Origin: a phage
Sequence record: PV730300.1
Direction: 5' to 3' (one strand)
DNA: 64,000 nt
The translations under genes were made by a program, and so were the position numbers. The notes below the pieces were generated by a model. It ran no database searches, had not been told where the DNA came from, and was given only the letters and a program-made list of their open reading frames with translations. Shown in pieces: positions 32-16,196 of this stretch (the first letter of the stretch is position 1; each line of letters begins with the position of its first letter).

Positions 32-1651
32 ATGGAAATTAGTCAAAACATGCCAGGTTTTAAAGAAGAACCTTTGGTGCCGACTTTGACTGTAACCCTC
101 CTGGATAAAAGTGTTCATTATGTCAGTTTAGGATTCTATGCTTCAGATATTTCAGAAGATGGTAAAACAGCCACAATCAAGCTAGATTTTGGTAATATCT
201 TTTCTGGCCCTAATAATGATATTCCTTTGGATATGAGTGCCGTAGACAATATTTTCTTCTCTTTGATTACAGCAAGGTATGAAAAAATAGAGGAGATTGT
301 ACCTATTGACAGTCAAGAGGCTTGGTTTACTTTCACTCTTCTTGAACCTACTTCTGGTTATAGTATGATGAAAGTCAGCAACCTTGTCCAGCCTGAACAT
401 GATATTCGCATGTGCACATCTTATGATGATATGTATAACCTGACTCCAGAGAGAGTTATTTATAATACATATGCACTAGGTTATCGTGGAATGATTAACC
501 ATTACAACGGAATGTCTCACTATTATGAGTTCTCATGGAACGGAACATCTTGGGCTTTAAATAGATCTGTTTTCCTGAATCCGGCTACAGAAGCTTGGCT
601 TAACAGTTTCCATTCTATAGCTAATGAAAATGGCTACACAATAATGAACTCTTTGAGTTTTGAGTTGATGAGCACAGTTTGTCCTGTTGAATGGGTCCAG
701 CATGATTGGAACGATGCTCTTGCAGCAACAGGGTATAAGCCTCCTAGTTACGTGTTGTCTCCAACTATTGACGAAGGCATGGAATATTTGCAAAATGTTA
801 TTAACAAAATAGCATCTATTTCTCAAGCTAATAACATTCCAGTCGTCATTCAAATTGGTGAACCTTGGTGGTGGTATAATACAGCAAGTAAAATGCCTTG
901 CATATACGATTACACTACCAAACTGGCATTCAACACAGAAACTGGCTTATTTGCACAAGATGCAGGAACAATAGATAATTATAAAACAGGAACGCCGTTT
1001 GACGAATACTATGCGTTTTTGTCTCGTAAACTAGGATTAAGAGTTACAAAGTTTGCAACAGACACTAGAGCAACTTATCCAGGAGCTAAAGTAACATTGC
1101 TGCCATTCTTACCATCAATTATCGGCAATGGTTTAATGGAGAAAGTTAACTTTCCGTCTGATTACTACATTCCTGAAGCTTTTGATTTTTATTGTTCAGA
1201 GTGTTACGACTGGCTTCTGGAAGGTAAAATGATGAAAGCATTTGATGCAATTACCATACCACATGAAAAATTAGGTTTTGAATATTCTGATATTCACTAT
1301 CTTGCAGGTTTTGTTCCAGATGCTACTCTTGCCCCTTTGTATGGCTTTGATCCTGAATCAAACTACCGCACGTATCTTTGGAAAATGATTATAGGTAACA
1401 TAGTGTTGAACGCCAATAAGTTTGACGGACTTACACAATATATATGGGCCTATCCTCAAATAATGCACGATTCTATCACGGTAGTTAATTCTCAATCCCA
1501 AGTTTTCTATATGGGTAACGTGCCTTTGAACGCTTATTTACAGGATATCACTCTTAAGCAGGTAAATGTTGAGATTGCCACCCTAAGTGGAATTACATTA
1601 GCCACTAAATCTGGAGAAGATTTAGTAACAACACAAAAATTTTATATATAG
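32..1651 (+). CDS. hypothetical protein, probably virion/tail-associated (539 aa)
   Basis: Long ORF opening a co-directional block of tail genes; next gene starts 9 nt after its stop; no catalytic motif recognised. Confidence 0.5.
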   Translation: MEISQNMPGFKEEPLVPTLTVTLLDKSVHYVSLGFYASDISEDGKTATIKLDFGNIFSGPNNDIPLDMSAVDNIFFSLITARYEKIEEIVPIDSQEAWFTFTLLEPTSGYSMMKVSNLVQPEHDIRMCTSYDDMYNLTPERVIYNTYALGYRGMINHYNGMSHYYEFSWNGTSWALNRSVFLNPATEAWLNSFHSIANENGYTIMNSLSFELMSTVCPVEWVQHDWNDALAATGYKPPSYVLSPTIDEGMEYLQNVINKIASISQANNIPVVIQIGEPWWWYNTASKMPCIYDYTTKLAFNTETGLFAQDAGTIDNYKTGTPFDEYYAFLSRKLGLRVTKFATDTRATYPGAKVTLLPFLPSIIGNGLMEKVNFPSDYYIPEAFDFYCSECYDWLLEGKMMKAFDAITIPHEKLGFEYSDIHYLAGFVPDATLAPLYGFDPESNYRTYLWKMIIGNIVLNANKFDGLTQYIWAYPQIMHDSITVVNSQSQVFYMGNVPLNAYLQDITLKQVNVEIATLSGITLATKSGEDLVTTQKFYI

Positions 1652-7831: not shown

Positions 7832-10800
7832 ATGGCAACATTCCCAACATATCCAGCAACGTCTCTCGAACAGGGCGTAGACCTGGTTATTTTCTCATCT
7901 AACCAACTCCATGATGTTATTAATGGAAGTGCTACAGAGAGTATTGAAACAGAATCAGGGTTGATACCAACCCTGAGAAAAGCCCTTGTTGACAACTTTT
8001 TCTTTAAAAGCCCATTGGATTGGGCGCAAGGCACAAACGAAACAGTTTTTAACCAACTTCGTTATTTCCAGAATGGAGTATTGAGCGGTTATTACTATGC
8101 CCCTAACGCTACATTGGTTAACCCAATCCCTATGCAAGGGACTCCAGTAGGAGATAACAACTGGGTATTGTGGGGACTGAAAACAGAACAACTAGCAACA
8201 GAAGTCACCCCGTGGGTATACTCTGGTGCAACGGGTTATGAAACAGTAATTAGTCCTCCTTACATCTTTGATAGTGCTATTGTTACGATCAATGGTGTTA
8301 TTCAGGTTCTGGGGGAAGCTTTCCGTATAGAAGATAGTAAGATCATCTTATCTGAACCTTTGGGACACGATCCTGCAACAGGACTGCCAAACAAGCTTTT
8401 TGCTTATATTGGTAAAATCGTAGCTTCAGCAGATACAGATCCTAACCTAGAGAATCGTCTTGTTAGTTTAGAAACAAAAACGGAAGAACTAACAGAAAGC
8501 ATGGATAAAGTCCCTCTGCAAACTATTGCTCGTAAATATGGTTTGTTAGATGATGAGGTGGCTTACGCAACAGCAGGTCAATCGTTAACAGGGATTAAAG
8601 CTCTGTATGATCCAGTAGCACAGTCTTCCTACACATTACCTCCTAACATCACAGGAACTTTAACATCCTTATCTGTTTCTGGAGTAATGACTTATTCTGG
8701 TGGGTCTGTAGATCTTTCTGCACTAGCTGTTGAACGTGGACAGTTTGTTCATTTGCCTACAAGCTTTGGTAATAACGTAACTCTGACAGCTAAAAATCAG
8801 ACGATTGGACGTGGTGCTGGTCGTTATCGTTGGGCTGGAAGTTTACCAAAAAGTATTTTGGCCTCCGATACATTGGAGACAAGCGGTGGATTAGGTCCAA
8901 ATGCATGGGTTCTGACCAATACAGAAGGACTGTTAACCCCTCGTGGTGGAACATACAACGACTTATTCGATGTTGTCTACTTGTCAGAATTTGCTAACAA
9001 CACAACAGCATATACCACACCAGAAGCAGCTTTCCAAGCAGCACTGTTAGCAGCAAAAGCTTCTAAAAGCAAGATTCTCGATGCTTACGGTTGTGATATG
9101 ACTTTCACGACAAGCTCTTTTGATATTCAAGGTATCACTTTGCGTGGGGGTGTGTTCCGTGGTCAACGCGACTATCGTGTGCAAAATGCTACAGTAGAAG
9201 GCACAACTTTCCGTAACTCTCGTGTTATGTATTGGGGTGGTGCTGTGCGCATGTTCGATTGTTTGTGGGACGGTGCTCCTCGCGCAGGTCAAGTTGGTAG
9301 CTTGGTATTCCAAGGCAACCCAATATCAGGTACTTTTGAAATTGATAACTGTACTTTTAAAAACGGGTTGTATGGCATCCTTCAACAAGGAACAGGGGAA
9401 CCAGTAACACGTGGTGTCTTCCGTAACCTTACCTTCATGGACATGCAAGGTGATGCAATAGAACTGAACGTCATCAATAAACATTATGACGATGGTTGTG
9501 TGATTGAGAATATTTACCTGTCTAATATCGATGGGACTAACGCTCCTATTCCTCTGTCCAACTGGGGTATCGGTATCGGTGTAGCTGGTAAAGGACCATA
9601 TGGTTACGGAATCCCTGATGATCAATATTGCAAGAATATTACAATTCGTAACGTTTTTGCAAAACGTTGTCGTCAGATTGTCCACGTAGAAGTTGGTCGT
9701 AATATCTCTATCGAAAACATTCATGGCGATCCAGACCAGACCGTATCTGTTGGGACAGGTTTGGCAACTGGCGCAGTTGTAATGTATGGAAGTAAAGATT
9801 TTACGATTGACGGTGTTTACGGAGAGCCTAAAACAGACGGTAGCACACTTGCAAGTAATATCCGTATGATTTATTTGGAGTGGGGAACTAACGCAGTTCT
9901 GGATGAAGAGGGTAATCCGGTAGTTCCGGCACAGGGCAGACCTTCAAATCCATGCTTTAACTATTCTGTTCGTAACATTCACACCAAAACTGGGCGTGTT
10001 TTTGCGGGAGTTTCCGCTGGACCAGGTTATGAAAACAGAGTTAGCTTTGAAAATATTCGTTGCGCTGCATTGCAGTTGTTCGGTATAGCTTCTTGGCTTT
10101 CAATGTCTAACATCACCTGTAATATCTTCGATTGTGTTGGTCAACCTGAATCTGGTCCAGGGACATTTTATGATGGATTCTTCCGTAGAGAAAAATCTGT
10201 TCTTGAAATGGTTAACGTAAACTGTTACCCAGATGGCAAGACGATGGTTACTGGTCGTCCACAGTGGAGCCGTTGCCGTTACTCTGATATTCATCGTGTC
10301 AACTGTAATGTTGAAGCTAATATGTATACCAATATCGCAGGTGGTATTGGAGCTATTGTAGGGACAACGGGCAAAGTTTATTACTTAGAGCCTAATCCTA
10401 GTCGAAACATTGATGGAATGCATTTCCCAACAGGGAAAGAGTTTGACAAAGGTGATATGATAGTCAAGGCGGATAATACGTTCTTCCTTGTAACAACAAG
10501 TGGGGCATATATTCCAGATATCCCAGCTTTCGGTATTCGAGCTACACAGGCAGGAGATACCTTCCTAACACAGAACTTGACTCCTAACGGGACAGCAACA
10601 AATGCTTCTTGGTTGTATCATTACCCTCTGTCAGCAGGGACACGTATCCGTATTCCTGGTGCTGGCGTAGGTGGAGCAGATTTGGACACAGTTATTACTC
10701 GTGCACCTTATCAAGATAATGATACGTGGACTAACCCAGTTAAAATAGACATTGCAGATCCAATTGTAACGCCTACAAGTGCTGGAGTTAGAATTAAAAC

Positions 10801-10885
10801 CATACCTAATGATTCCAGCAATGTTTCTGTAGGTAATACTGCGGTTATTCGCCCAACGCCAGTAGTAGATGTGCCAACAACCTAA
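7832..10885 (+). CDS. tailspike/tail fiber protein with predicted right-handed beta-helix (1017 aa)
   Basis: Largest ORF of the tail module; repeated N/G/T-rich rungs (NCTFKNGLYG, NISIENIHGD, NITIRNVF) as in pectate-lyase-fold depolymerases; terminator follows. Confidence 0.55.
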   Translation: MATFPTYPATSLEQGVDLVIFSSNQLHDVINGSATESIETESGLIPTLRKALVDNFFFKSPLDWAQGTNETVFNQLRYFQNGVLSGYYYAPNATLVNPIPMQGTPVGDNNWVLWGLKTEQLATEVTPWVYSGATGYETVISPPYIFDSAIVTINGVIQVLGEAFRIEDSKIILSEPLGHDPATGLPNKLFAYIGKIVASADTDPNLENRLVSLETKTEELTESMDKVPLQTIARKYGLLDDEVAYATAGQSLTGIKALYDPVAQSSYTLPPNITGTLTSLSVSGVMTYSGGSVDLSALAVERGQFVHLPTSFGNNVTLTAKNQTIGRGAGRYRWAGSLPKSILASDTLETSGGLGPNAWVLTNTEGLLTPRGGTYNDLFDVVYLSEFANNTTAYTTPEAAFQAALLAAKASKSKILDAYGCDMTFTTSSFDIQGITLRGGVFRGQRDYRVQNATVEGTTFRNSRVMYWGGAVRMFDCLWDGAPRAGQVGSLVFQGNPISGTFEIDNCTFKNGLYGILQQGTGEPVTRGVFRNLTFMDMQGDAIELNVINKHYDDGCVIENIYLSNIDGTNAPIPLSNWGIGIGVAGKGPYGYGIPDDQYCKNITIRNVFAKRCRQIVHVEVGRNISIENIHGDPDQTVSVGTGLATGAVVMYGSKDFTIDGVYGEPKTDGSTLASNIRMIYLEWGTNAVLDEEGNPVVPAQGRPSNPCFNYSVRNIHTKTGRVFAGVSAGPGYENRVSFENIRCAALQLFGIASWLSMSNITCNIFDCVGQPESGPGTFYDGFFRREKSVLEMVNVNCYPDGKTMVTGRPQWSRCRYSDIHRVNCNVEANMYTNIAGGIGAIVGTTGKVYYLEPNPSRNIDGMHFPTGKEFDKGDMIVKADNTFFLVTTSGAYIPDIPAFGIRATQAGDTFLTQNLTPNGTATNASWLYHYPLSAGTRIRIPGAGVGGADLDTVITRAPYQDNDTWTNPVKIDIADPIVTPTSAGVRIKTIPNDSSNVSVGNTAVIRPTPVVDVPTT

Positions 10886-10916: not shown

Positions 10917-10946
10917 AATAGAATGGTCTAATGATAGGAGAGATAA

Positions 10947-12971
10947 ATGAATTTAACAAGACCTAATAGTGCGATAGCCGATCTGGTAGAAGCTACTTAT
11001 CGAAAACGTCGCAGCTTTGAGGCAGGTTTTACATTACGTAATTCCCGTGAAGTTTTGCTGTTAGCAGCAGAAGGGAATTATTACCAATGGAAAGGAACTT
11101 TTCCTAAAGTAGTTCCAGCAAACTCTACGCCAGCCACCACAGGTGGTATTTCTTCCCTTGCATGGCAAAGTGTTGGGACCGCTGATGATATAGCAATTAT
11201 CAATGCCAAGTTTACGGCAATGCAGCAACAGATTGATGATCTGTCGGAAACAATACCTGAAGCTGGTAAATCGGCTTATCAGATCGCACTTGATAATGGT
11301 TTTGTTGGAACAGAAGCACAATGGCTTGCTTCTTTGAAAGGGGATACTGGTGCTCAACTTAATATTAAAGGATCATTAGCAAGCACTAGTGAGCTACCAT
11401 CTACAGGTAACGTTGCAGGGGACGGTTATATCGTAGGCGATGTAATCTATGCTTGGGATGGTTCTGTTTGGAAGCTTATTTCTTCTCTTGGACCAGAAGG
11501 GAAATCAGCTTATGAGGTATGGTTGGCAGATGGTAATACAGGATCTGTTTATGATTTTCTTACCTCTATAAAAGGTGATAAAGGTGATGTTGGTCCTACA
11601 GGGCCACAGGGAGCACCTGGTGTTAACGCCAACGGTTTTGATTATCGTGGAGATTTGCCTTCTACAAGTAACTTACCACAACCTAACTCTGAAAACGTAA
11701 GCCAAGCTTATTCTATCAATGGTAATCTTTATGTCTCTAATGGGACAGCTTGGGTCAACATGGGTAATATTGTTGGTCCTCAAGGTCCACAAGGTGAGGC
11801 AGGTAAAGACGGTCTTGATGGAACAGATGGAGATGAAGGGAAATCTGCATATCAAAGTTGGCTGGATGCTGGTAATGAAGGGACAGAAGTAGATTTTATT
11901 GCCTCACTTAAAGGTCCAAAAGGAGACAAGGGTGATCAAGGAGAGCGAGGTCCACAAGGTGAACTAGGTCCACAAGGACCAGTGGGTGCAACAGGATCAG
12001 GCTTAGAGATTATCGGGGTTCTGAACAGTGAAGCTGAACTTCCTCCTACTGGAGAAGTAGGTGATGCATATAAAATTAATAATGATTTGTATGTTTGGAT
12101 TCAAGATGCTACGGAATGGATGAATGTTGGCAGTCTTGGAGGAACATCAATTACAGCTAAAGGTCATGTTCCGAACAGTGAAGCTCTCCCTGTTTATAAT
12201 AACTATGGTGATGCCTATTTAACTGAAGACACTAGTAATCTTTACATCTATACCTACGATCAAGACACCAATTCCGCATCTTTTGTTGACATGGGAAGTA
12301 TTAAAGGCGACAAAGGTGAAAAAGGGGATAAAGGAGATAAGGGTGATCCTGGAACAAACGGAACCAACGGTACTAATGGGACCAACGGTAAAGACGGCGC
12401 ACAGTGGTTTGTAGCAACAACTAATCCAGTCGCAGGTGATGGTGTTATCAATGATTACGCTTTCAACACTACCACTGGAGCAGTGTTTAAGAAAACAGAT
12501 TCTTCTACGTGGACACTTATAGGAACTCTTCCTAGTATACCAGAAGCACCTCAAGACGGCTTGACGTATGGTCGTTCTGATGGGAACTGGATCGAAATAT
12601 CAGGATCAGATCCTACAGAAGCTATAACACCAACTAAAGTTACAGCAGGTTTCATGGAACTTGAAACAACTACTGCCAACTCTGGAGCATCTTGGACTCC
12701 TTCTGGAACTTCCAATATGTATGTTGTTACAGTAACTGACGCTCTGACAGTTGGAGCATGGCCTGGTGTCACTGGCTCTACAAAGCCTAAAGCGTTTTCA
12801 GCAATGATTTATTTGATTCAAGATACAACGGGACACACGGTTACACTAGATGCGTCTTATGGAGCACTGAATGATACAGAAATAGCAACTACTGCTAACG
12901 CAGTAACAATTTTGCAATTAACGTATCCTGGTGTGGGTAATGTCGTGGACATGGTTGTTGTAACACGATAA
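10947..12971 (+). CDS. collagen-like repeat tail fiber protein (674 aa)
   Basis: Several Gly-X-Y blocks (GDKGDVGPTGPQGAPG; GPQGPQGEAGKDGLDGTDGDEG; GPKGDKGDQGERGPQGELGPQGPVGATG; GDKGEKGDKGDKGDPGTNGTNGTNGTNGKDG). Confidence 0.7.
   Translation: MNLTRPNSAIADLVEATYRKRRSFEAGFTLRNSREVLLLAAEGNYYQWKGTFPKVVPANSTPATTGGISSLAWQSVGTADDIAIINAKFTAMQQQIDDLSETIPEAGKSAYQIALDNGFVGTEAQWLASLKGDTGAQLNIKGSLASTSELPSTGNVAGDGYIVGDVIYAWDGSVWKLISSLGPEGKSAYEVWLADGNTGSVYDFLTSIKGDKGDVGPTGPQGAPGVNANGFDYRGDLPSTSNLPQPNSENVSQAYSINGNLYVSNGTAWVNMGNIVGPQGPQGEAGKDGLDGTDGDEGKSAYQSWLDAGNEGTEVDFIASLKGPKGDKGDQGERGPQGELGPQGPVGATGSGLEIIGVLNSEAELPPTGEVGDAYKINNDLYVWIQDATEWMNVGSLGGTSITAKGHVPNSEALPVYNNYGDAYLTEDTSNLYIYTYDQDTNSASFVDMGSIKGDKGEKGDKGDKGDPGTNGTNGTNGTNGKDGAQWFVATTNPVAGDGVINDYAFNTTTGAVFKKTDSSTWTLIGTLPSIPEAPQDGLTYGRSDGNWIEISGSDPTEAITPTKVTAGFMELETTTANSGASWTPSGTSNMYVVTVTDALTVGAWPGVTGSTKPKAFSAMIYLIQDTTGHTVTLDASYGALNDTEIATTANAVTILQLTYPGVGNVVDMVVVTR
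12304..12398 (+). repeat. tandem triplet-codon repeats (GXY block) inside the collagen-like fiber gene
   Basis: aaaggngan-type 9-nt units followed by four ggaaccaacgg-like units. Confidence 0.6.
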
Positions 12972-12975
12972 CAGA

Positions 12976-12999
12976 AGCCCCGAAAGGGGCTTTCTTTTT
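12976..12999 (+). terminator. rho-independent terminator
   Basis: AGCCCC-gaaa-GGGGCT hairpin followed by TTTCTTTTT. Confidence 0.65.
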
Positions 13000-13012
13000 A
13001 TGGAGGGTTTAA

Positions 13013-14773
13013 ATGTTTCCAATTCCAATATTTACTATTATGACTAGCACTGGTGTCGTTCCTCTGCCAGCAGGTATTGTTAAAAAAGTGATTACTTTAG
13101 ATTACCCAGATAACGCTGGTAATTCTAACAACAGTTTAGCAATTTTGCTTAATGATGGTAGATTGTTTACTCAAGGCGCAAACCTCTTTGGTGAGATTGC
13201 AGATGGAACTCGTAGTGCACGATTCAATAATTTCCACTTAGCTTCTACTGTAGTAGCGGACGTGTTTACCGCAGATCGTTGTTTTGTTATTAAAACTAAC
13301 AGTGGTGGATGGCAATATTCAGGATTGACAGCAGGGTTGGTAGGATCTATAGCAGCAGGTGGTACGGATGCATGTGTAACTACTTGGACCAGCTTTCCAT
13401 CTGTAATAACAGGGACTATTTCTTTAGCCAATCTTAAAGAGGTTAAAGGAGGGTATAACAATACTCTCTGGTTAATGAATAGTGGTGTTCTTTATGGATC
13501 GGGTCAAAACACAGTAGGTAGTTTAGGTGCAAGCACTACTAACGAAGTTTCTACTCCTCGTCAGATAACAAGCGCAGCAGTTGCTTTTGATGCAGGTTAC
13601 AACCAATGCTCTTATGTCAACAATGTGGGAACCTTGCGTGTTTGTGGAGCTAGTAAAGGTTTAGCAGGTAATAATAACACAACAACAGCTTTTGTCAATG
13701 CCAAGATATCCACTACTGAAACAGTGTATGTCAAAGATTACATCAATACAGTTTCCCAGACAATAGTTGTAGGAGATACCTCCGGTGGCACGGGTACAGT
13801 AAACTACTTATATGTTAGATCTAATACAGAAACAACCTACACTAAACTGGACACCTTTGCAGCAGGTTTTTCAACATGGAAATTTCCACCAAGCCGCCAC
13901 TCTTTTTTCGTTGGGATCAATAATTCCTTGTGGGCTATTGGTAAGAACTATACGGCAAACTTAGGTTTGGGATATGATTCTGCGAGCGGAGATCCACTCC
14001 AAGTGGGAAAACCAGTTAAACCTGAAGGAGTGGGTTCCTGGGATATAAACAAGCTCACAAGCGTTCATACGCTGAATATGGATATTACTAACCAATTAGG
14101 TTATCAAGGAACCTTTTTCGTTTATAACGGGAATATGTATTATTCCGGTATTTGGAAAGATGGGAAAGCCTCGTATCTGTTCAATAGTGGTCTAAACTAT
14201 AATAAATTCACACCAATAGCAAGCTCTGTGATTACAGGGGATGTGCTGGCGACTAGCTTAACTACAGATTCTTTAGGAATTTGTATTGTAGGTGGAACTA
14301 AACAGTTGACACATTCTGTTAGCCCAGAAGGAGGTAAACTTTTCAATATTAAATACACTTCTTCTGCCCCTGCAAACATGACAATATCATCTACTGGTTT
14401 AATGACTTTCCATGCAGAAGGTGGTTTTGATGCAGGTATGACAGCCTTAAACGCTGAAGGAACAATTTTATCAGATACCTCTGGAGGATATGCTTCAACA
14501 TTGAGTGTTTACACCCCTAGCTTATCTGCGATGGATGTAGGAACAACACAAACAATGGTAGCAGAAATAACGCCAACAGGGGCAGCAAGCTTACCTGGTA
14601 TGGTTGTTGAGTATACCACTACAGATCCTAGTGTTGCTACAGTAGATCCTACAACTGGTGTAATAACTGGTGTTGGTGACGGTGGTTGTAGGATTGGTTG
14701 CACAGCTACGTATCAAGGTGTTGTTACCGCTTCTGATAGTTCTTATTTAACGGTGAATGCTGTTGCGGGATAA
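13013..14773 (+). CDS. tail fiber / receptor-binding protein with C-terminal Ig-like (Big_2-type) domain (586 aa)
   Basis: C-terminus (...TTDPSVATVDPTTGVITGVGDGG...YQGVVTASDSSYLTVNAV) matches bacterial Ig-like group 2 pattern; last gene of tail block. Confidence 0.55.
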   Translation: MFPIPIFTIMTSTGVVPLPAGIVKKVITLDYPDNAGNSNNSLAILLNDGRLFTQGANLFGEIADGTRSARFNNFHLASTVVADVFTADRCFVIKTNSGGWQYSGLTAGLVGSIAAGGTDACVTTWTSFPSVITGTISLANLKEVKGGYNNTLWLMNSGVLYGSGQNTVGSLGASTTNEVSTPRQITSAAVAFDAGYNQCSYVNNVGTLRVCGASKGLAGNNNTTTAFVNAKISTTETVYVKDYINTVSQTIVVGDTSGGTGTVNYLYVRSNTETTYTKLDTFAAGFSTWKFPPSRHSFFVGINNSLWAIGKNYTANLGLGYDSASGDPLQVGKPVKPEGVGSWDINKLTSVHTLNMDITNQLGYQGTFFVYNGNMYYSGIWKDGKASYLFNSGLNYNKFTPIASSVITGDVLATSLTTDSLGICIVGGTKQLTHSVSPEGGKLFNIKYTSSAPANMTISSTGLMTFHAEGGFDAGMTALNAEGTILSDTSGGYASTLSVYTPSLSAMDVGTTQTMVAEITPTGAASLPGMVVEYTTTDPSVATVDPTTGVITGVGDGGCRIGCTATYQGVVTASDSSYLTVNAVAG

Positions 14774-14778
14774 GAAAA

Positions 14779-14804
14779 GGAGCCAAATGGCTCCTTTCTT
14801 TTAT
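14779..14804. terminator. bidirectional terminator between convergent gene blocks
   Basis: GGAGCC-aaat-GGCTCC hairpin flanked by A-run upstream and T-run downstream; lies between the plus-strand tail block and the minus-strand replication block. Confidence 0.6.
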
Positions 14805-15295
14805 TCAGCGTTCAACCCTTCCCCATGTTCTTGATGCCAAGCTTCATGGTGCAGAGGACACAGCCATAGAACATCTAACGGTTTATCATAATCACAATGA
14901 TGAGCATGAACATCAACAGACCCACACACTTGGCAAGGTTGTTTTATTAACTTTCCATCTCGGAGTGCGTTACCTACAGCTATATGAGCAGAACGTTTTT
15001 TCGGATTCTTTTCGATGTAACGTTTCTTAGCTTCATTAGCCTTATCTTTACCTTTCCCTTTTGCGTAAGCCTCTTTTAAAGCTTTGCGCTCTGGGGTCTG
15101 ATCTCTGTTTTTATCATACTCTTTGTAATATTCAGATTTATCTTTACGATTCTGTTTAACATCTTTCTTATTACATTCTTTGCATTTATTGACGTGACCG
15201 TCAGCCATAGCTTTATGTTTGTAAAATTCAGTGAGGGGCTTTAACACCCCACACTTGAAACAAACCTTAGAAGCAATGCAGGAAGTTTCGACCAT
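14801..15295 (-). CDS. HNH endonuclease (start uncertain; ATG at 15295 chosen)
   Basis: C-terminal CQVCGSVDVHAHHCDYDKPLDVLWLCPLHHEAWH is an HNH motif with zinc-ligand cysteines; the longest ORF (to 15493) overlaps the upstream gene and is probably over-extended. Confidence 0.6.
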   Translation of the reverse strand: MVETSCIASKVCFKCGVLKPLTEFYKHKAMADGHVNKCKECNKKDVKQNRKDKSEYYKEYDKNRDQTPERKALKEAYAKGKGKDKANEAKKRYIEKNPKKRSAHIAVGNALRDGKLIKQPCQVCGSVDVHAHHCDYDKPLDVLWLCPLHHEAWHQEHGEGLNAE

Positions 15296-16196
15296 ATTGC
15301 AGTCCAATAGGGGCAAAAGGAATATCTTCATCGAAGTCCATTGGAGGTTCTTCTTGATTACTTGGAGTTGGTTCTGGTTGTGGTTCAGGTTTCTTAACTT
15401 CTTTCTTCTCTTCTTTCTTAGGTTGTTCTGCGGAACCACGGATGGCAGCAGCAACTTTATCAGACAGAGCCAGAACTTTACGAGCAGAGTCAATCAGATC
15501 TTCTACAGATACAGTCTTAATGGTATGGTCTTTACAAGCATTGAGGATAGCGTGACCAACAGATGCCCCAAGATCATAATCATTAATATCAACGCCACGA
15601 GATTCAGCAATTTCCGATTTCAGTGTGACAGTTGCAGATTGAACAACCCCAGCGATATCGAAAGCATCGCCTTTAACACCATTACGAATCAGTTCCAGTG
15701 CACCATTTACTGCGTGACCAGTTTCCAGACCTACAGTATCACGTTTTTTATAGGATTGCTTAGGAGCATCGTTGGAACCTTTATTGCCAGAAGATTTGTT
15801 AGACTTCTGAACACCATCGGTAGACAATACTGTAATACGAGATTTTTTAGTATTGTAGTAAGTCTTACCGCCTTTATTATCAACGCGATCAATATCAATA
15901 CTTACTTCTACACCTTTTTCAATAGTGATCCAATTATCACCTTCTTTGACTTGCAGGTTTTCATAACCTTCTTTCAGTTCAATGTCACCAAGAGAAATCC
16001 AAACACCTTTCTCATCTGGTTTAGCACCTTTCTCTTTCAGAACAAGAGAAGCTCGGTGAGTTGAAACAATCGTTTTTCCTTCCCAATGAAAAGTTTTAGG
16101 TTCAGCGAATTTATCCAGTTTAACGTAGTCTACGATACCAGTTGCATAAGTTACGGTTTTGCCTTTACGATCAGTTTCAGTATTAATTACGGACAT
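15267..16196 (-). CDS. putative single-stranded DNA-binding protein (309 aa)
   Basis: Basic/Gly-rich linker then acidic DFDEDIPF motif resembling the bacterial SSB C-terminal tip; strong AGAGGAGA RBS; in replication module. Confidence 0.5.
   Translation of the reverse strand: MSVINTETDRKGKTVTYATGIVDYVKLDKFAEPKTFHWEGKTIVSTHRASLVLKEKGAKPDEKGVWISLGDIELKEGYENLQVKEGDNWITIEKGVEVSIDIDRVDNKGGKTYYNTKKSRITVLSTDGVQKSNKSSGNKGSNDAPKQSYKKRDTVGLETGHAVNGALELIRNGVKGDAFDIAGVVQSATVTLKSEIAESRGVDINDYDLGASVGHAILNACKDHTIKTVSVEDLIDSARKVLALSDKVAAAIRGSAEQPKKEEKKEVKKPEPQPEPTPSNQEEPPMDFDEDIPFAPIGLQYGRNFLHCF

What the first reader, a model, noticed from the sequence alone, without database searches (positions are those of the whole stretch)
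10947..12971. Collagen-like tail fiber with several GXY blocks built from short tandem DNA repeats
At least four Gly-X-Y blocks are encoded, some by near-identical 9-nt or 12-nt tandem units (12304-12398). Such repeats are prone to slipped-strand expansion or contraction, which could vary fiber length and host-surface reach between isolates or within a population.
Basis: seen in the sequence. Interest (0 to 1): 0.45.

Follow-up and report, generated by a model that had tools for sequence, protein, structure and literature searches.

The report
Collagen-like segmented phage tail fibre
This is the already-annotated tail fibre gene of a phAPEC8-like E. coli phage. Its four short collagen-like stretches are real and do gain or lose whole Gly-X-Y units between relatives, but only rarely among close isolates, so the finding is correct and fairly ordinary.

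Summary
The ORF 10947-12971 (+, 674 aa) is real and carries four uninterrupted Gly-X-Y blocks of 5, 7, 9 and 10 triplets, far beyond chance. The window is a Phapecoctavirus (phAPEC8-like) genome. The gene is 97-99% identical to more than 50 GenBank phage genes annotated as tail fibre, tail spike or collagen triple helix repeat protein.

Its layout is an N-terminal tailspike-anchor domain, a helix, alternating small helical and beta modules separated by the four collagen blocks, a foldon-like motif, and a C-terminal beta-sandwich shared with other myophage tail fibres.

Of 60 listed close relatives, 57 have the same 2025-nt gene length. Two carry in-frame losses of 9 nt and 18 nt, both inside 12306-12398. 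In more distant orthologues block 4 ranges from 3 to 12 triplets and block 2 from 4 to 15, while block 1 is always 5.

The DNA units are not near-identical. TRF gives 75-78% matches, period 9 only, with no 12-nt unit. They are no more repetitive than the peptide sequence forces. This is a slowly evolving, triplet-quantised spacer, not a hypermutable locus. It is a known kind of feature and of low interest.

The parts
10936..10942 (+). Shine-Dalgarno-like AGGAGAG, 4 nt upstream of the ATG
   Evidence: Read directly from the sequence.
10947..12971 (+). Tail fibre CDS, 674 aa plus stop. Orthologue of phAPEC8 gp179.
   Evidence: ORF list. PHROG 15437 matches full length. 98.5% nt identity to phAPEC8_00179.
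10980..11177 (+). N-terminal anchor domain (aa 12-77), Tail_spike_N of the TSP1/gp66 type
   Evidence: Pfam PF18668, 70.5 bits, E 1.3e-19. PDB sequence hits include 9vvr, 9occ, CBA120 TSP1/3/4 and G7C gp63.1. Foldseek hits to the same domains at E 1e-4 to 1e-5. AF2 pLDDT is 82-89.
11187..11252 (+). Single long alpha-helix (aa 81-102), a candidate trimeric coiled-coil neck
   Evidence: AF2 DSSP assigns H81-102 with pLDDT 57-65. The coiled-coil role is inferred.
11265..11339 (+). A-module 1 (aa 107-131), GKSAY...SLKG two-helix hairpin
   Evidence: The G.SAY motif occurs at aa 107, 185 and 298. AF2 helices 110-116 and 123-130.
11352..11492 (+). B-module 1 (aa 136-182), four-stranded beta module with an LP...GD.Y...W..G motif
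   Evidence: AF2 strands 139-180 with pLDDT 75-85. Motif listing.
11499..11573 (+). A-module 2 (aa 185-209)
11574..11621 (+). Collagen block 1, 5 triplets (GDKGDVGPTGPQGAPG). Its length is the same in every orthologue examined.
   Evidence: AF2 monomer pLDDT is below 50 over aa 210-229.
11634..11774 (+). B-module 2 (aa 230-276)
   Evidence: AF2 strands 232-274 with pLDDT 83-88.
11775..11840 (+). Collagen block 2, 7 triplets. Orthologues have 4 to 15.
11838..11912 (+). A-module 3 (aa 298-322)
11913..11996 (+). Collagen block 3, 9 triplets. Orthologues have 7 to 11. It is the left edge of a divergent cassette (11907-12146) in anhysbys, nepoznato and WPEC1.
12000..12305 (+). B-modules 3 and 4 (aa 352-399 and 401-453)
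   Evidence: AF2 strands 354-396 and 403-451 with pLDDT 68-87.
12306..12398 (+). Collagen block 4, 10 triplets (GDK GEK GDK GDK GDP GTN GTN GTN GTN GKD G). This is the length-variable block.
   Evidence: The 9-nt and 18-nt deletions in ASO2A and iGC_PHA_EC001 lie here. Orthologues have 3 to 12 triplets.
12399..12530 (+). B-module 5 (aa 485-528)
   Evidence: AF2 strands 487-527 with pLDDT 78-85.
12537..12602 (+). Foldon-like motif IPEAPQDGLTYGRSDGNWIEIS (aa 531-552)
   Evidence: 13 of 22 residues match the T4 fibritin foldon. phmmer against PDB foldon chains gives E 1e-4 to 5e-3. Pfam Fibritin_C scores only 12.5 bits (cut-off 21), but the same alignment columns in relatives P0032, P0036 and P0041 score 36-37 bits. 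AF2 predicts a hairpin at 540-544 and 547-551.
12666..12968 (+). C-terminal beta-sandwich domain (aa 574-674), the presumed receptor-binding tip
   Evidence: AF2 pLDDT 80-92 in the C-terminal model. Sequence homology to the C-terminus of the phiTE tail fibre 9cuy_g, E 7e-11. Matches PHROG 4549 and Vequintavirus and Klebsiella myophage tail fibres. No significant solved fold. Receptor binding is inferred.
12974..13003 (+). Intrinsic-terminator-like hairpin and T-run directly after the stop codon
   Evidence: Terminator scan. Annotated as a terminator in ASO2A and phAPEC8.

Best explanation
The gene encodes a homotrimeric, segmented tail fibre of a phAPEC8-like myophage, one of several receptor-binding proteins in its multivalent adsorption apparatus. 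The steps below marked as inferred were not shown directly.

Layout. The N-terminal Tail_spike_N domain docks the fibre onto the baseplate-associated receptor-binding-protein scaffold (inferred from CBA120 and G7C). A short helix and a chain of small modules follow: helix hairpins of the form 'GKSAY...SLKG' and four-stranded beta modules. Four short collagen triple helices of about 4.6, 6.3, 8.0 and 8.9 nm separate these modules and act as stiff spacers. These lengths are inferred from the established 0.286 nm per residue rise.

Folding. The collagen segments have 5-10 triplets, no hydroxyproline, are rich in KGD and KGE, and are too short to fold alone. The flanking trimeric modules probably hold them in register. 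The foldon-like hairpin just downstream of the last block probably does this best, much as in engineered (GPP)10-foldon (inferred). The C-terminal beta-sandwich is the distal binding tip (inferred).

Length change. Length changes occur almost only by gain or loss of whole Gly-X-Y triplets in blocks 2, 3 and 4. A triplet is both a 9-nt quasi-repeat, which offers 5-10 nt of microhomology for slippage or unequal exchange, and a self-contained structural unit whose removal keeps frame and helix register. The changes are rare among close isolates and accumulate between genera.
For: Identity and context.

Gly-X-Y blocks beyond chance.

Domain map: the low-pLDDT segments of the monomer model coincide with the Gly-X-Y blocks (210-229, 276-299, 322-352, 454-484). 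N-terminal domain.

Foldon-like motif. Of the 120 listed homologues, 27 carry Pfam Fibritin_C hits, most together with Collagen.

C-terminal domain shared with other myophage tail fibres.

Triplet-quantised indels: -9 nt and -18 nt within block 4 in two isolates. Among the six orthologues at 79-98% identity, 6 of 8 indel events lie in block 4 and all 6 are multiples of 3 aa. Block lengths are 5 / 4-15 / 7-11 / 3-12 across orthologues.

Rarity: 57 of 60 listed relatives have the same 2025-nt gene length. All 3 metagenome matches have the same block-4 spacing. Listed cluster members are 674 aa, apart from the two known variants and one partial 189-aa fragment.
Against: No trimer model or experiment was available. 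Triple-helix formation, the docking partner and receptor binding are all inferred.

The foldon-like motif is below Pfam's threshold in this protein and has low pLDDT in the monomer.

The DNA units are not more alike than the peptide forces. A mutational bias is therefore not demonstrated separately from selective tolerance. Block 1 contains the only perfect 9-nt tandem duplication, AAAGGTGAT x2 at 11571-11588, yet never varies in length.

No virion proteomics for this protein was found.
Confidence: 0.8

Rival explanations
1. Strong form of the first reader's idea. Block 4 is a hypermutable contingency locus. Slipped-strand mispairing generates fibre-length variants at high frequency within a lysate, and these variants differ in host range.
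For: The only length polymorphisms among close isolates lie in 12306-12398 and are multiples of 9 nt. They sit at the most repetitive sub-runs, GDK/GEK and GTN.
Against: 57 of 60 listed relatives and all 3 metagenome matches keep the same length. The units are 75-78% alike with at most 10 nt of exact match, and are no more repetitive than random synonymous coding. The variants change length by only 0.9-1.7 nm out of about 28 nm of collagen, a figure inferred from the known helix rise.
Confidence: 0.08
2. The confinement of indels to Gly-X-Y blocks reflects purifying selection alone. Whole-triplet changes are the only ones a fibre tolerates, and the repeats have no elevated mutation rate.
For: Block 1 holds the only perfect 9-nt tandem duplication yet has 5 triplets in all 25 or more orthologues. 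DNA repetition does not exceed the peptide-imposed level. Small 1-5 aa indels do occur in the loops of globular modules at 60% identity.
Against: The two recent deletions fall exactly where neighbouring units share the most sequence: GGAACAAAC/GGAACCAAC, and the AAAGG.GA run. This is what slippage predicts. The two causes are not mutually exclusive.
Confidence: 0.35
3. The protein is not a tail fibre. It is a head, neck or whisker fibre, like fibritin or a capsid fibre.
For: It has a foldon-like motif. The best non-N-terminal Foldseek hit is the Pa223 capsid spike, E 1.3e-5. tblastn hits a Klebsiella phage 'capsid fiber protein' through the A-module and collagen part.
Against: The N-terminal domain is the tailspike anchor of CBA120 and G7C. 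The gene sits between the colanidase tailspike and another tail protein, downstream of Baseplate_J, a tail fibre and a tail fibre assembly gene. The C-terminal domain is shared with annotated myophage tail fibres, including phiTE. The Pa223 match has TM 0.12/0.25 and rmsd 24 A, which is weak.
Confidence: 0.06
4. The Gly-X-Y blocks are flexible glycine-rich linkers or hinges between trimeric knots and do not form triple helices.
For: Each block is short, at 5-10 triplets. Proline content is modest: 8 of 31 X positions and 2 of 31 Y positions. AF2 gives pLDDT below 50 there.
Against: Gly periodicity is strict with no interruption in any of 25 or more orthologues, and all length changes are whole triplets. 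A linker would not require this. The blocks are rich in KGD and KGE pairs, which are known to stabilise bacterial collagens (established knowledge). Low pLDDT is expected when a monomer is predicted for an obligate trimer. E. coli prophage fibres with similar sequences form true triple helices (PMC3368898).
Confidence: 0.1

Closest known systems
phAPEC8 gp179 (phAPEC8_00179, 'putative phage tail fiber protein') and its Phapecoctavirus orthologues. 'TfpM2' (681 aa) of the proposed Wecvirus genus (PMC12695924) is probably the same gene, judged only by its 681-aa length, which matches orthologues P0020 and P0021.
   Same: Same gene. 98.5% nt identity over all 2025 nt, the same neighbours and the same four blocks. 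One record (PV191315) already labels it 'collagen triple helix repeat protein'.
   Different: The window's exact protein sequence is not in the 15-billion-protein collection. It differs from phAPEC8 in block 4 by GTN in place of GTD.
E. coli O157:H7 prophage collagen-like side tail fibre proteins EPclA-D (Ghosh et al. 2012, PMC3368898)
   Same: Trimeric phage fibre with an N-terminal attachment domain, a helical trimer segment, a Hyp-free collagen triple helix and a C-terminal trimerising or binding domain.
   Different: EPclA has one continuous collagen domain between PfN/PCoil and PfC. Here four short blocks are interleaved with A and B modules. No EPcl-type Pfam domains were detected.
Branched tailspike complexes of CBA120 (TSP1-4) and G7C (gp63.1/gp66)
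   Same: Homologous N-terminal anchor domain by sequence and predicted fold. The upstream colanidase carries the same domain internally, as expected for a scaffold-type receptor-binding protein.
   Different: No beta-helix depolymerase body. The shaft is made of collagen and small modules, so it is a fibre and not a spike, although some records call it 'tail spike protein'.
T4 fibritin foldon and engineered collagen-foldon chimeras (for example PDB 1NAY)
   Same: A 22-residue motif, 59% identical to the foldon, placed C-terminal to a collagen segment. Relatives have one or two bona fide Fibritin_C hits in the same columns.
   Different: Below the Pfam threshold here. It is not at the extreme C-terminus: a 120-aa domain follows, and a beta module lies between it and the collagen block.
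Variable-number collagen-like repeat proteins of bacteria (B. anthracis BclA, S. pyogenes Scl1/Scl2). This comparison rests on my own knowledge and was not tested here.
   Same: Gly-X-Y copy number differs between strains and sets filament length.
   Different: Those arrays are long, with near-identical DNA units and frequent polymorphism. Here the blocks are short, scrambled at wobble positions and nearly fixed within the genus.

Membership tests
Collagen triple helix repeat proteins (Pfam PF01391; bacterial or phage collagen-like proteins) | Uninterrupted (Gly-X-Y)n runs scoring above the Pfam gathering threshold | tested here: met
   Four runs of 5, 7, 9 and 10 triplets. 46.5 bits against a cut-off of 27.2. 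Far beyond shuffled expectation.
Collagen triple helix repeat proteins (Pfam PF01391; bacterial or phage collagen-like proteins) | An adjacent trimerisation or registration domain | tested here: inconclusive
   Foldon-like motif at aa 531-552 and helix 81-102. Oligomeric state was not determined.
Collagen triple helix repeat proteins (Pfam PF01391; bacterial or phage collagen-like proteins) | Actual triple-helix formation (CD, protease resistance or a structure) | not testable with these tools
   Only monomer AF2 was available, and the blocks have pLDDT below 50.
Tail_spike_N-anchored receptor-binding proteins (CBA120 TSP1-4, G7C gp66/gp63.1) | N-terminal PF18668 domain | tested here: met
   70.5 bits against a cut-off of 25. 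PDB sequence hits at E 1.8e-13 to 2.5e-5. Foldseek at E 2.8e-5 to 1e-3.
Tail_spike_N-anchored receptor-binding proteins (CBA120 TSP1-4, G7C gp66/gp63.1) | Right-handed beta-helix enzymatic body (a tailspike proper) | tested here: not met
   No Beta_helix or pectate-lyase hit. The AF2 model shows small modules and no beta-helix. It is therefore a fibre using a tailspike-type anchor.
Tail_spike_N-anchored receptor-binding proteins (CBA120 TSP1-4, G7C gp66/gp63.1) | Physical docking onto another receptor-binding protein or the baseplate | not testable with these tools
   Inferred from homology only.
Fibritin_C / foldon (Pfam PF07921) | Score above the Pfam gathering threshold | tested here: not met
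   12.5 bits, E 0.17, against a cut-off of 21 for aa 525-559. No hit in the 190-aa C-terminal scan.
Fibritin_C / foldon (Pfam PF07921) | Foldon signature residues and beta-hairpin, at a position homologous to bona fide foldons in relatives | tested here: met
   13 of 22 residues match the T4 foldon, with phmmer E 1e-4 to 5e-3. It aligns with the Fibritin_C hits (36-37 bits) of P0032, P0036 and P0041. AF2 predicts a hairpin at 540-551.
Slipped-strand VNTR or contingency locus | Perfect or near-perfect tandem DNA units | tested here: not met
   75-78% matches. Exact inter-unit matches are at most 10-12 nt. Not above the codon-randomised expectation.
Slipped-strand VNTR or contingency locus | Copy-number polymorphism among closely related isolates | tested here: met
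   Two of 60 listed relatives differ, by -1 and -2 triplets in block 4. The frequency is low.
Slipped-strand VNTR or contingency locus | Length heterogeneity within one population | not testable with these tools
   No read data were available.

The most novel reading that the evidence does not exclude
The collagen blocks, especially 2 and 4, may act as an evolvable, triplet-quantised spacer system. It would set the reach and azimuth of the distal binding domain relative to the phage's other receptor-binding proteins. Hints include partial compensation between block 2 and block 4 lengths in the roughly 60%-identity orthologues (block 2 / block 4 triplets: 4/10, 8/7, 9/3, 10/3, 10/5). A natural collagen-foldon arrangement would serve as the folding nucleus. 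Changing the triplet number would then measurably shift adsorption on hosts with different O-antigen or capsule thickness.
Probability: 0.12. Interest if true: 0.45.

Novelty: already known. Interest (0 to 1): 0.2.

Why it matters
Practically, this gene is one of the receptor-binding proteins of a phage group widely isolated for therapy against APEC, ETEC, STEC and Shigella. The domain map shows where the fibre could be shortened, lengthened or re-tipped without breaking it: at the collagen blocks, the conserved SLKG and NVGSLGG module junctions, the foldon-like motif and the shared C-terminal tip. Conceptually it adds little. Collagen-like phage fibres and variable Gly-X-Y numbers are established, and here the variation is slow.

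Tried and rejected
- A homologue search with the C-terminal 190 aa alone returned only two short fragments. The full-length search was used instead.
- Pfam found nothing for the A modules, the B modules or the C-terminal domain, even at E 10.
- Foldseek of the C-terminal model against the PDB gave no match at E <= 0.001. The best was the CBA120 TSP4 N-terminal region at E 0.015, and collagen XV/XVIII trimerisation domains matched only at E > 1.
- No 12-nt period was found.
- Minus-strand ORFs under the gene (for example 12260-12451, 'PLVPLVPLVPFVPGSPLSPLSP') are mirror images of the Gly-X-Y coding strand and were dismissed.
- The phi92 adsorption-apparatus paper (PMC3457257) is not held. The E. 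coli O177 'proteomics' paper contains no virion mass spectrometry.
- EP57's 486-nt in-frame deletion is not counted as firm evidence. That record is only 130.7 kb and the region upstream of the gene is split into several short CDSs. SKA64's 76-nt duplication is also not counted, because it breaks the frame.
- Pattern scans for expanded or contracted block-4 alleles found only the standard spacing, in 3 metagenome loci and 1 IMG/VR locus.
Full report
OBSERVATION. The ORF at 10947-12971 (+) is real and encodes 674 aa. It contains four uninterrupted Gly-X-Y runs:
- aa 210-225, GDKGDVGPTGPQGAPG, 5 triplets, nt 11574-11621
- aa 277-298, 7 triplets, nt 11775-11840
- aa 323-350, 9 triplets, nt 11913-11996
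- aa 454-484, GDKGEKGDKGDKGDPGTNGTNGTNGTNGKDG, 10 triplets, nt 12306-12398

The protein is 13.5% Gly. In 10,000 shuffles only 34 produced even one run of 6 or more Gly at period 3. The real protein has four such runs. Pfam Collagen is above threshold. Tandem Repeats Finder reports period-9 or period-18 arrays in each block, including 12302-12347 and 12351-12388. No 12-nt period was found, and block 4 gives only 75-78% matches.

Written codon by codon, the units differ at wobble positions. In block 4 the Gly codons run GGC, GGT, GGG, GGA, GGT, GGA, GGA, GGT, GGG, GGT, GGC. The longest exact match between copies is 10 nt in block 4 and 12 nt in block 3. I recoded the same peptides 5,000 times with the codon usage of the phage's tail genes. 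The real block 4 is slightly less self-similar than the recoded versions (0.655 against 0.701 +/- 0.031, P(sim <= obs) = 0.10). Blocks 1 to 3 are indistinguishable from the recoded versions. The tandem DNA repeat is therefore a by-product of the peptide repeat and not a trace of recent unit duplication.

WHAT THE GENE IS. The window is a piece of a Phapecoctavirus genome (phAPEC8-like, subfamily Stephanstirmvirinae). The gene matches 71 phage records, 55 of them at 95-99% nt identity. The best is vB_EcoM_DE16 at 99.0%. Annotations include 'tail fiber protein', 'tail spike protein' and, once, 'collagen triple helix repeat protein'. It is the orthologue of phAPEC8_00179.

The gene order is Baseplate_J-like, tail fibre (gpH-like), tail fibre assembly protein, a 1017-aa colanic-acid-degrading tailspike, this gene, then an RCC1/Big_2 tail protein. 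PHROG 15437 'tail fiber protein' matches end to end at 1335 bits. A Shine-Dalgarno-like AGGAGAG precedes the ATG. A terminator-like hairpin follows the stop codon, and terminators are annotated on both sides of the gene in ASO2A.

ANATOMY. aa 12-77 is a Tail_spike_N domain (PF18668, 70.5 bits). It is homologous by sequence to the anchor domains of CBA120 TSP1/3/4, G7C gp63.1 and newer entries, and by predicted fold.

An AF2 monomer model built on 25 orthologues has mean pLDDT 66.8 and gives a clean domain map:
- a beta domain at aa 20-78
- one long helix at aa 81-102
- three two-helix 'GKSAY...SLKG' A modules at aa 107-131, 185-209 and 298-322
- five four-stranded beta B modules at about aa 136-182, 230-276, 352-399, 401-453 and 485-528
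- a beta-hairpin at aa 540-551
- a C-terminal beta-sandwich at aa 574-674

The segments with pLDDT below 50 (210-229, 276-299, 322-352, 454-484) coincide with the four Gly-X-Y blocks. This is expected when an obligate trimer is modelled as a monomer.

aa 531-552 (IPEAPQDGLTYGRSDGNWIEIS) is 13/22 identical to the T4 fibritin foldon. It hits foldon chains and foldon fusion constructs in the PDB at E 1e-4 to 5e-3, including the collagen-foldon chimera 1NAY. In this protein the motif is below Pfam's Fibritin_C threshold (12.5 bits against 21). In relatives with the same N-terminus and collagen blocks, the same alignment columns score 36-37 bits, sometimes as two tandem copies. Of the 120 listed homologues, 27 carry Fibritin_C, most together with Collagen.

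The last roughly 110 aa are homologous to the C-terminus of the phiTE tail fibre (9cuy_g, E 7e-11). That part of phiTE was not built in the cryo-EM model. They also match Vequintavirus and Klebsiella myophage tail fibres. No solved fold matches this domain significantly. The only significant structural hit outside the N-terminus is the triple-beta-helix capsid spike of Pseudomonas phage Pa223 (E 1.3e-5, poor TM). It hints that the B modules interdigitate in the trimer.

COPY NUMBER. Of the 60 listed close relatives, 57 have the same 2025-nt gene length. Three differ:
- vB_EcoM_ASO2A is 9 nt shorter. It lacks one GTN unit at about 12357-12365.
- iGC_PHA_EC001 is 18 nt shorter. It lacks two K-G-D units at about 12321-12338. 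Both changes are in frame, at different sites, and inside 12306-12398.
- SKA64 carries a 76-nt tandem duplication of the first A module that breaks the frame.

Further checks agree. The 90%-identity protein cluster has 168 members. Of the 15 listed, 12 are 674 aa; the others are the two variants and one partial 189-aa fragment. A degenerate pattern spanning block 4 found three metagenome contigs, all with the standard spacing.

Further out, length changes accumulate:
- Orthologues at 79-86% identity have 8, 9 or 12 triplets in block 4.
- Justusliebigvirus orthologues (about 60% identity) have 5/5/8/5 or 5/5/8/6 triplets, with PHB05 and muut differing by one GEK.
- Other metagenomic orthologues have 4-15 triplets in block 2, 7-11 in block 3 and 3-12 in block 4.
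- Block 1 is 5 triplets in every sequence examined.

Among the six orthologues at 79% identity or more, 6 of 8 indel events lie in block 4 and all 6 are multiples of 3 aa. At 60% identity every indel within the Gly-X-Y blocks is a multiple of three residues, while the globular modules accumulate mostly 1-6 aa indels. vB_EcoM_EP57 has an in-frame 486-nt deletion that removes blocks 3 and 4 and two B modules. That record is short at 130.7 kb and the region upstream of the gene is annotated as several short CDSs, so I do not rely on it.

A second kind of variation is cassette exchange. In anhysbys, nepoznato and WPEC1 the segment 11907-12146 (block 3 plus B module 3) is only 42-70% identical, inside a gene that is otherwise mostly 90-100% identical, with somewhat lower flanks (80-100%) in WPEC1. 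The breakpoints lie at the conserved SLKG and NVGSLGG junctions.

MECHANISM. Shown:
- the gene, its blocks and its domain map
- its homology to tail-fibre and tailspike parts
- triplet-quantised length variation concentrated in blocks 2 and 4

Inferred:
- The protein is a homotrimer anchored through Tail_spike_N to the baseplate receptor-binding-protein scaffold. The upstream colanidase is the likely partner. It has an extra roughly 300-aa N-terminal region and the same domain at aa 302-361.
- The four Gly-X-Y blocks form short triple helices of about 4.6, 6.3, 8.0 and 8.9 nm, about 28 nm in total at 0.286 nm per residue (established value). They are stabilised by KGD and KGE ion pairs and clamped by the flanking trimeric modules.
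- The foldon-like hairpin sets chain register for the last block.
- The C-terminal beta-sandwich binds the receptor.

Whole triplets can be lost or gained because neighbouring 9-nt units share 5-10 nt of microhomology. The change also preserves the reading frame and helix register. Block 1 never varies even though it holds the only perfect 9-nt duplication. This shows that structural tolerance, not mutability alone, decides which blocks vary. One triplet changes length by about 0.86 nm, so the variants seen within the genus alter reach by only 1-2 nm.

COMPARISON AND NOVELTY. The gene itself is already in GenBank many times and is annotated as a tail fibre. The kind is also established: a phage fibre with Hyp-free collagen segments and trimerising caps, for example the E. 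coli prophage EPcl proteins (PMC3368898). It uses a CBA120/G7C-type anchor but is not a tailspike, because it has no beta-helix. It resembles VNTR collagen-like proteins such as BclA and Scl only loosely (this comparison rests on my own knowledge). It fails the 'near-perfect DNA repeat' criterion and is nearly monomorphic within its genus.

Two points are mildly new. One is the explicit segmented map. The other is a natural collagen-then-foldon arrangement, which a full-text search did not find described for phage tail fibres. Neither would surprise a specialist.

VERDICT. The feature is a known, ordinary tail fibre with slow, triplet-wise length evolution. Interest is 0.2.

Noticed in passing
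window 13013-14773 (+): The downstream RCC1-like/Big_2 tail protein is 586 aa here. It is 97% identical to aa 1-584 of phAPEC8 gp180 (891 aa) and lacks that protein's C-terminal ~305 aa. Relatives span about 912 nt more over the same interval.
   Followed up: partly
window 14801-15493 (-): ORF with an HNH-like motif (CQVCG...HAHHCDYDKPLDVLWLCPLHHEAWH), directly after the truncated tail gene. It is annotated 'endonuclease' in a subset of relatives (Mt1B1_P17, ZCKP1, nieznany, nepoznato) and absent from phAPEC8. There is no Pfam hit at E < 0.01. It may be a homing endonuclease linked to the neighbouring deletion.
   Followed up: partly
window 11907-12146: Sharply bounded divergent cassette (42-70% nt identity) in phages anhysbys, nepoznato and WPEC1, inside a gene otherwise mostly 90-100% identical (80-100% in WPEC1). 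It covers collagen block 3 plus the following beta module, with breakpoints at conserved module junctions.
   Followed up: partly
window 11265-11340 (L001, phage SKA64): SKA64 carries a 76-nt tandem duplication of the first GKSAY...SLKG module. It shifts the frame, and the gene is annotated truncated at 545 aa. This may be a real mutation or an assembly error.
   Followed up: partly
window 11902-12386 (L091, phage EP57): EP57 has an in-frame 486-nt deletion joining ...EVDFV to GKDGAQW..., giving a 512-aa fibre without blocks 3 and 4. The record is only 130.7 kb and the region upstream of the gene is annotated as several short CDSs, so its quality is doubtful.
   Followed up: partly
window 8735-8914 (within ORF 7832-10885): The 1017-aa colanic-acid-degrading tailspike carries the same Tail_spike_N domain internally (aa 302-361), after an extra ~300-aa N-terminal region. 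This is the layout of scaffold-type tailspikes that other receptor-binding proteins dock onto.
   Followed up: no
relatives of window 10947-12971 in GenBank: Phages 97-99% identical in this gene are recorded with hosts Klebsiella (ZCKP1), Acinetobacter (ABPW7), Campylobacter (B15) and Pseudomonas. These host labels are odd for an E. coli phage genus.
   Followed up: no
orthologues P0023-P0030 (blocks 2 and 4): In the ~60%-identity orthologues, long block 2 goes with short block 4 and vice versa (block 2 / block 4 triplets: 4/10, 8/7, 9/3, 10/3, 10/5; exception 5/5). This hints at a constrained total length. The data points are few and phylogenetically dependent.
   Followed up: no
window 32-1651 (+): This ORF matches the 'non-contractile tail sheath protein TIM barrel' (PF23845, E 2.8e-79). 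That is unexpected for a gene in a contractile-tailed phage's baseplate region.
   Followed up: no
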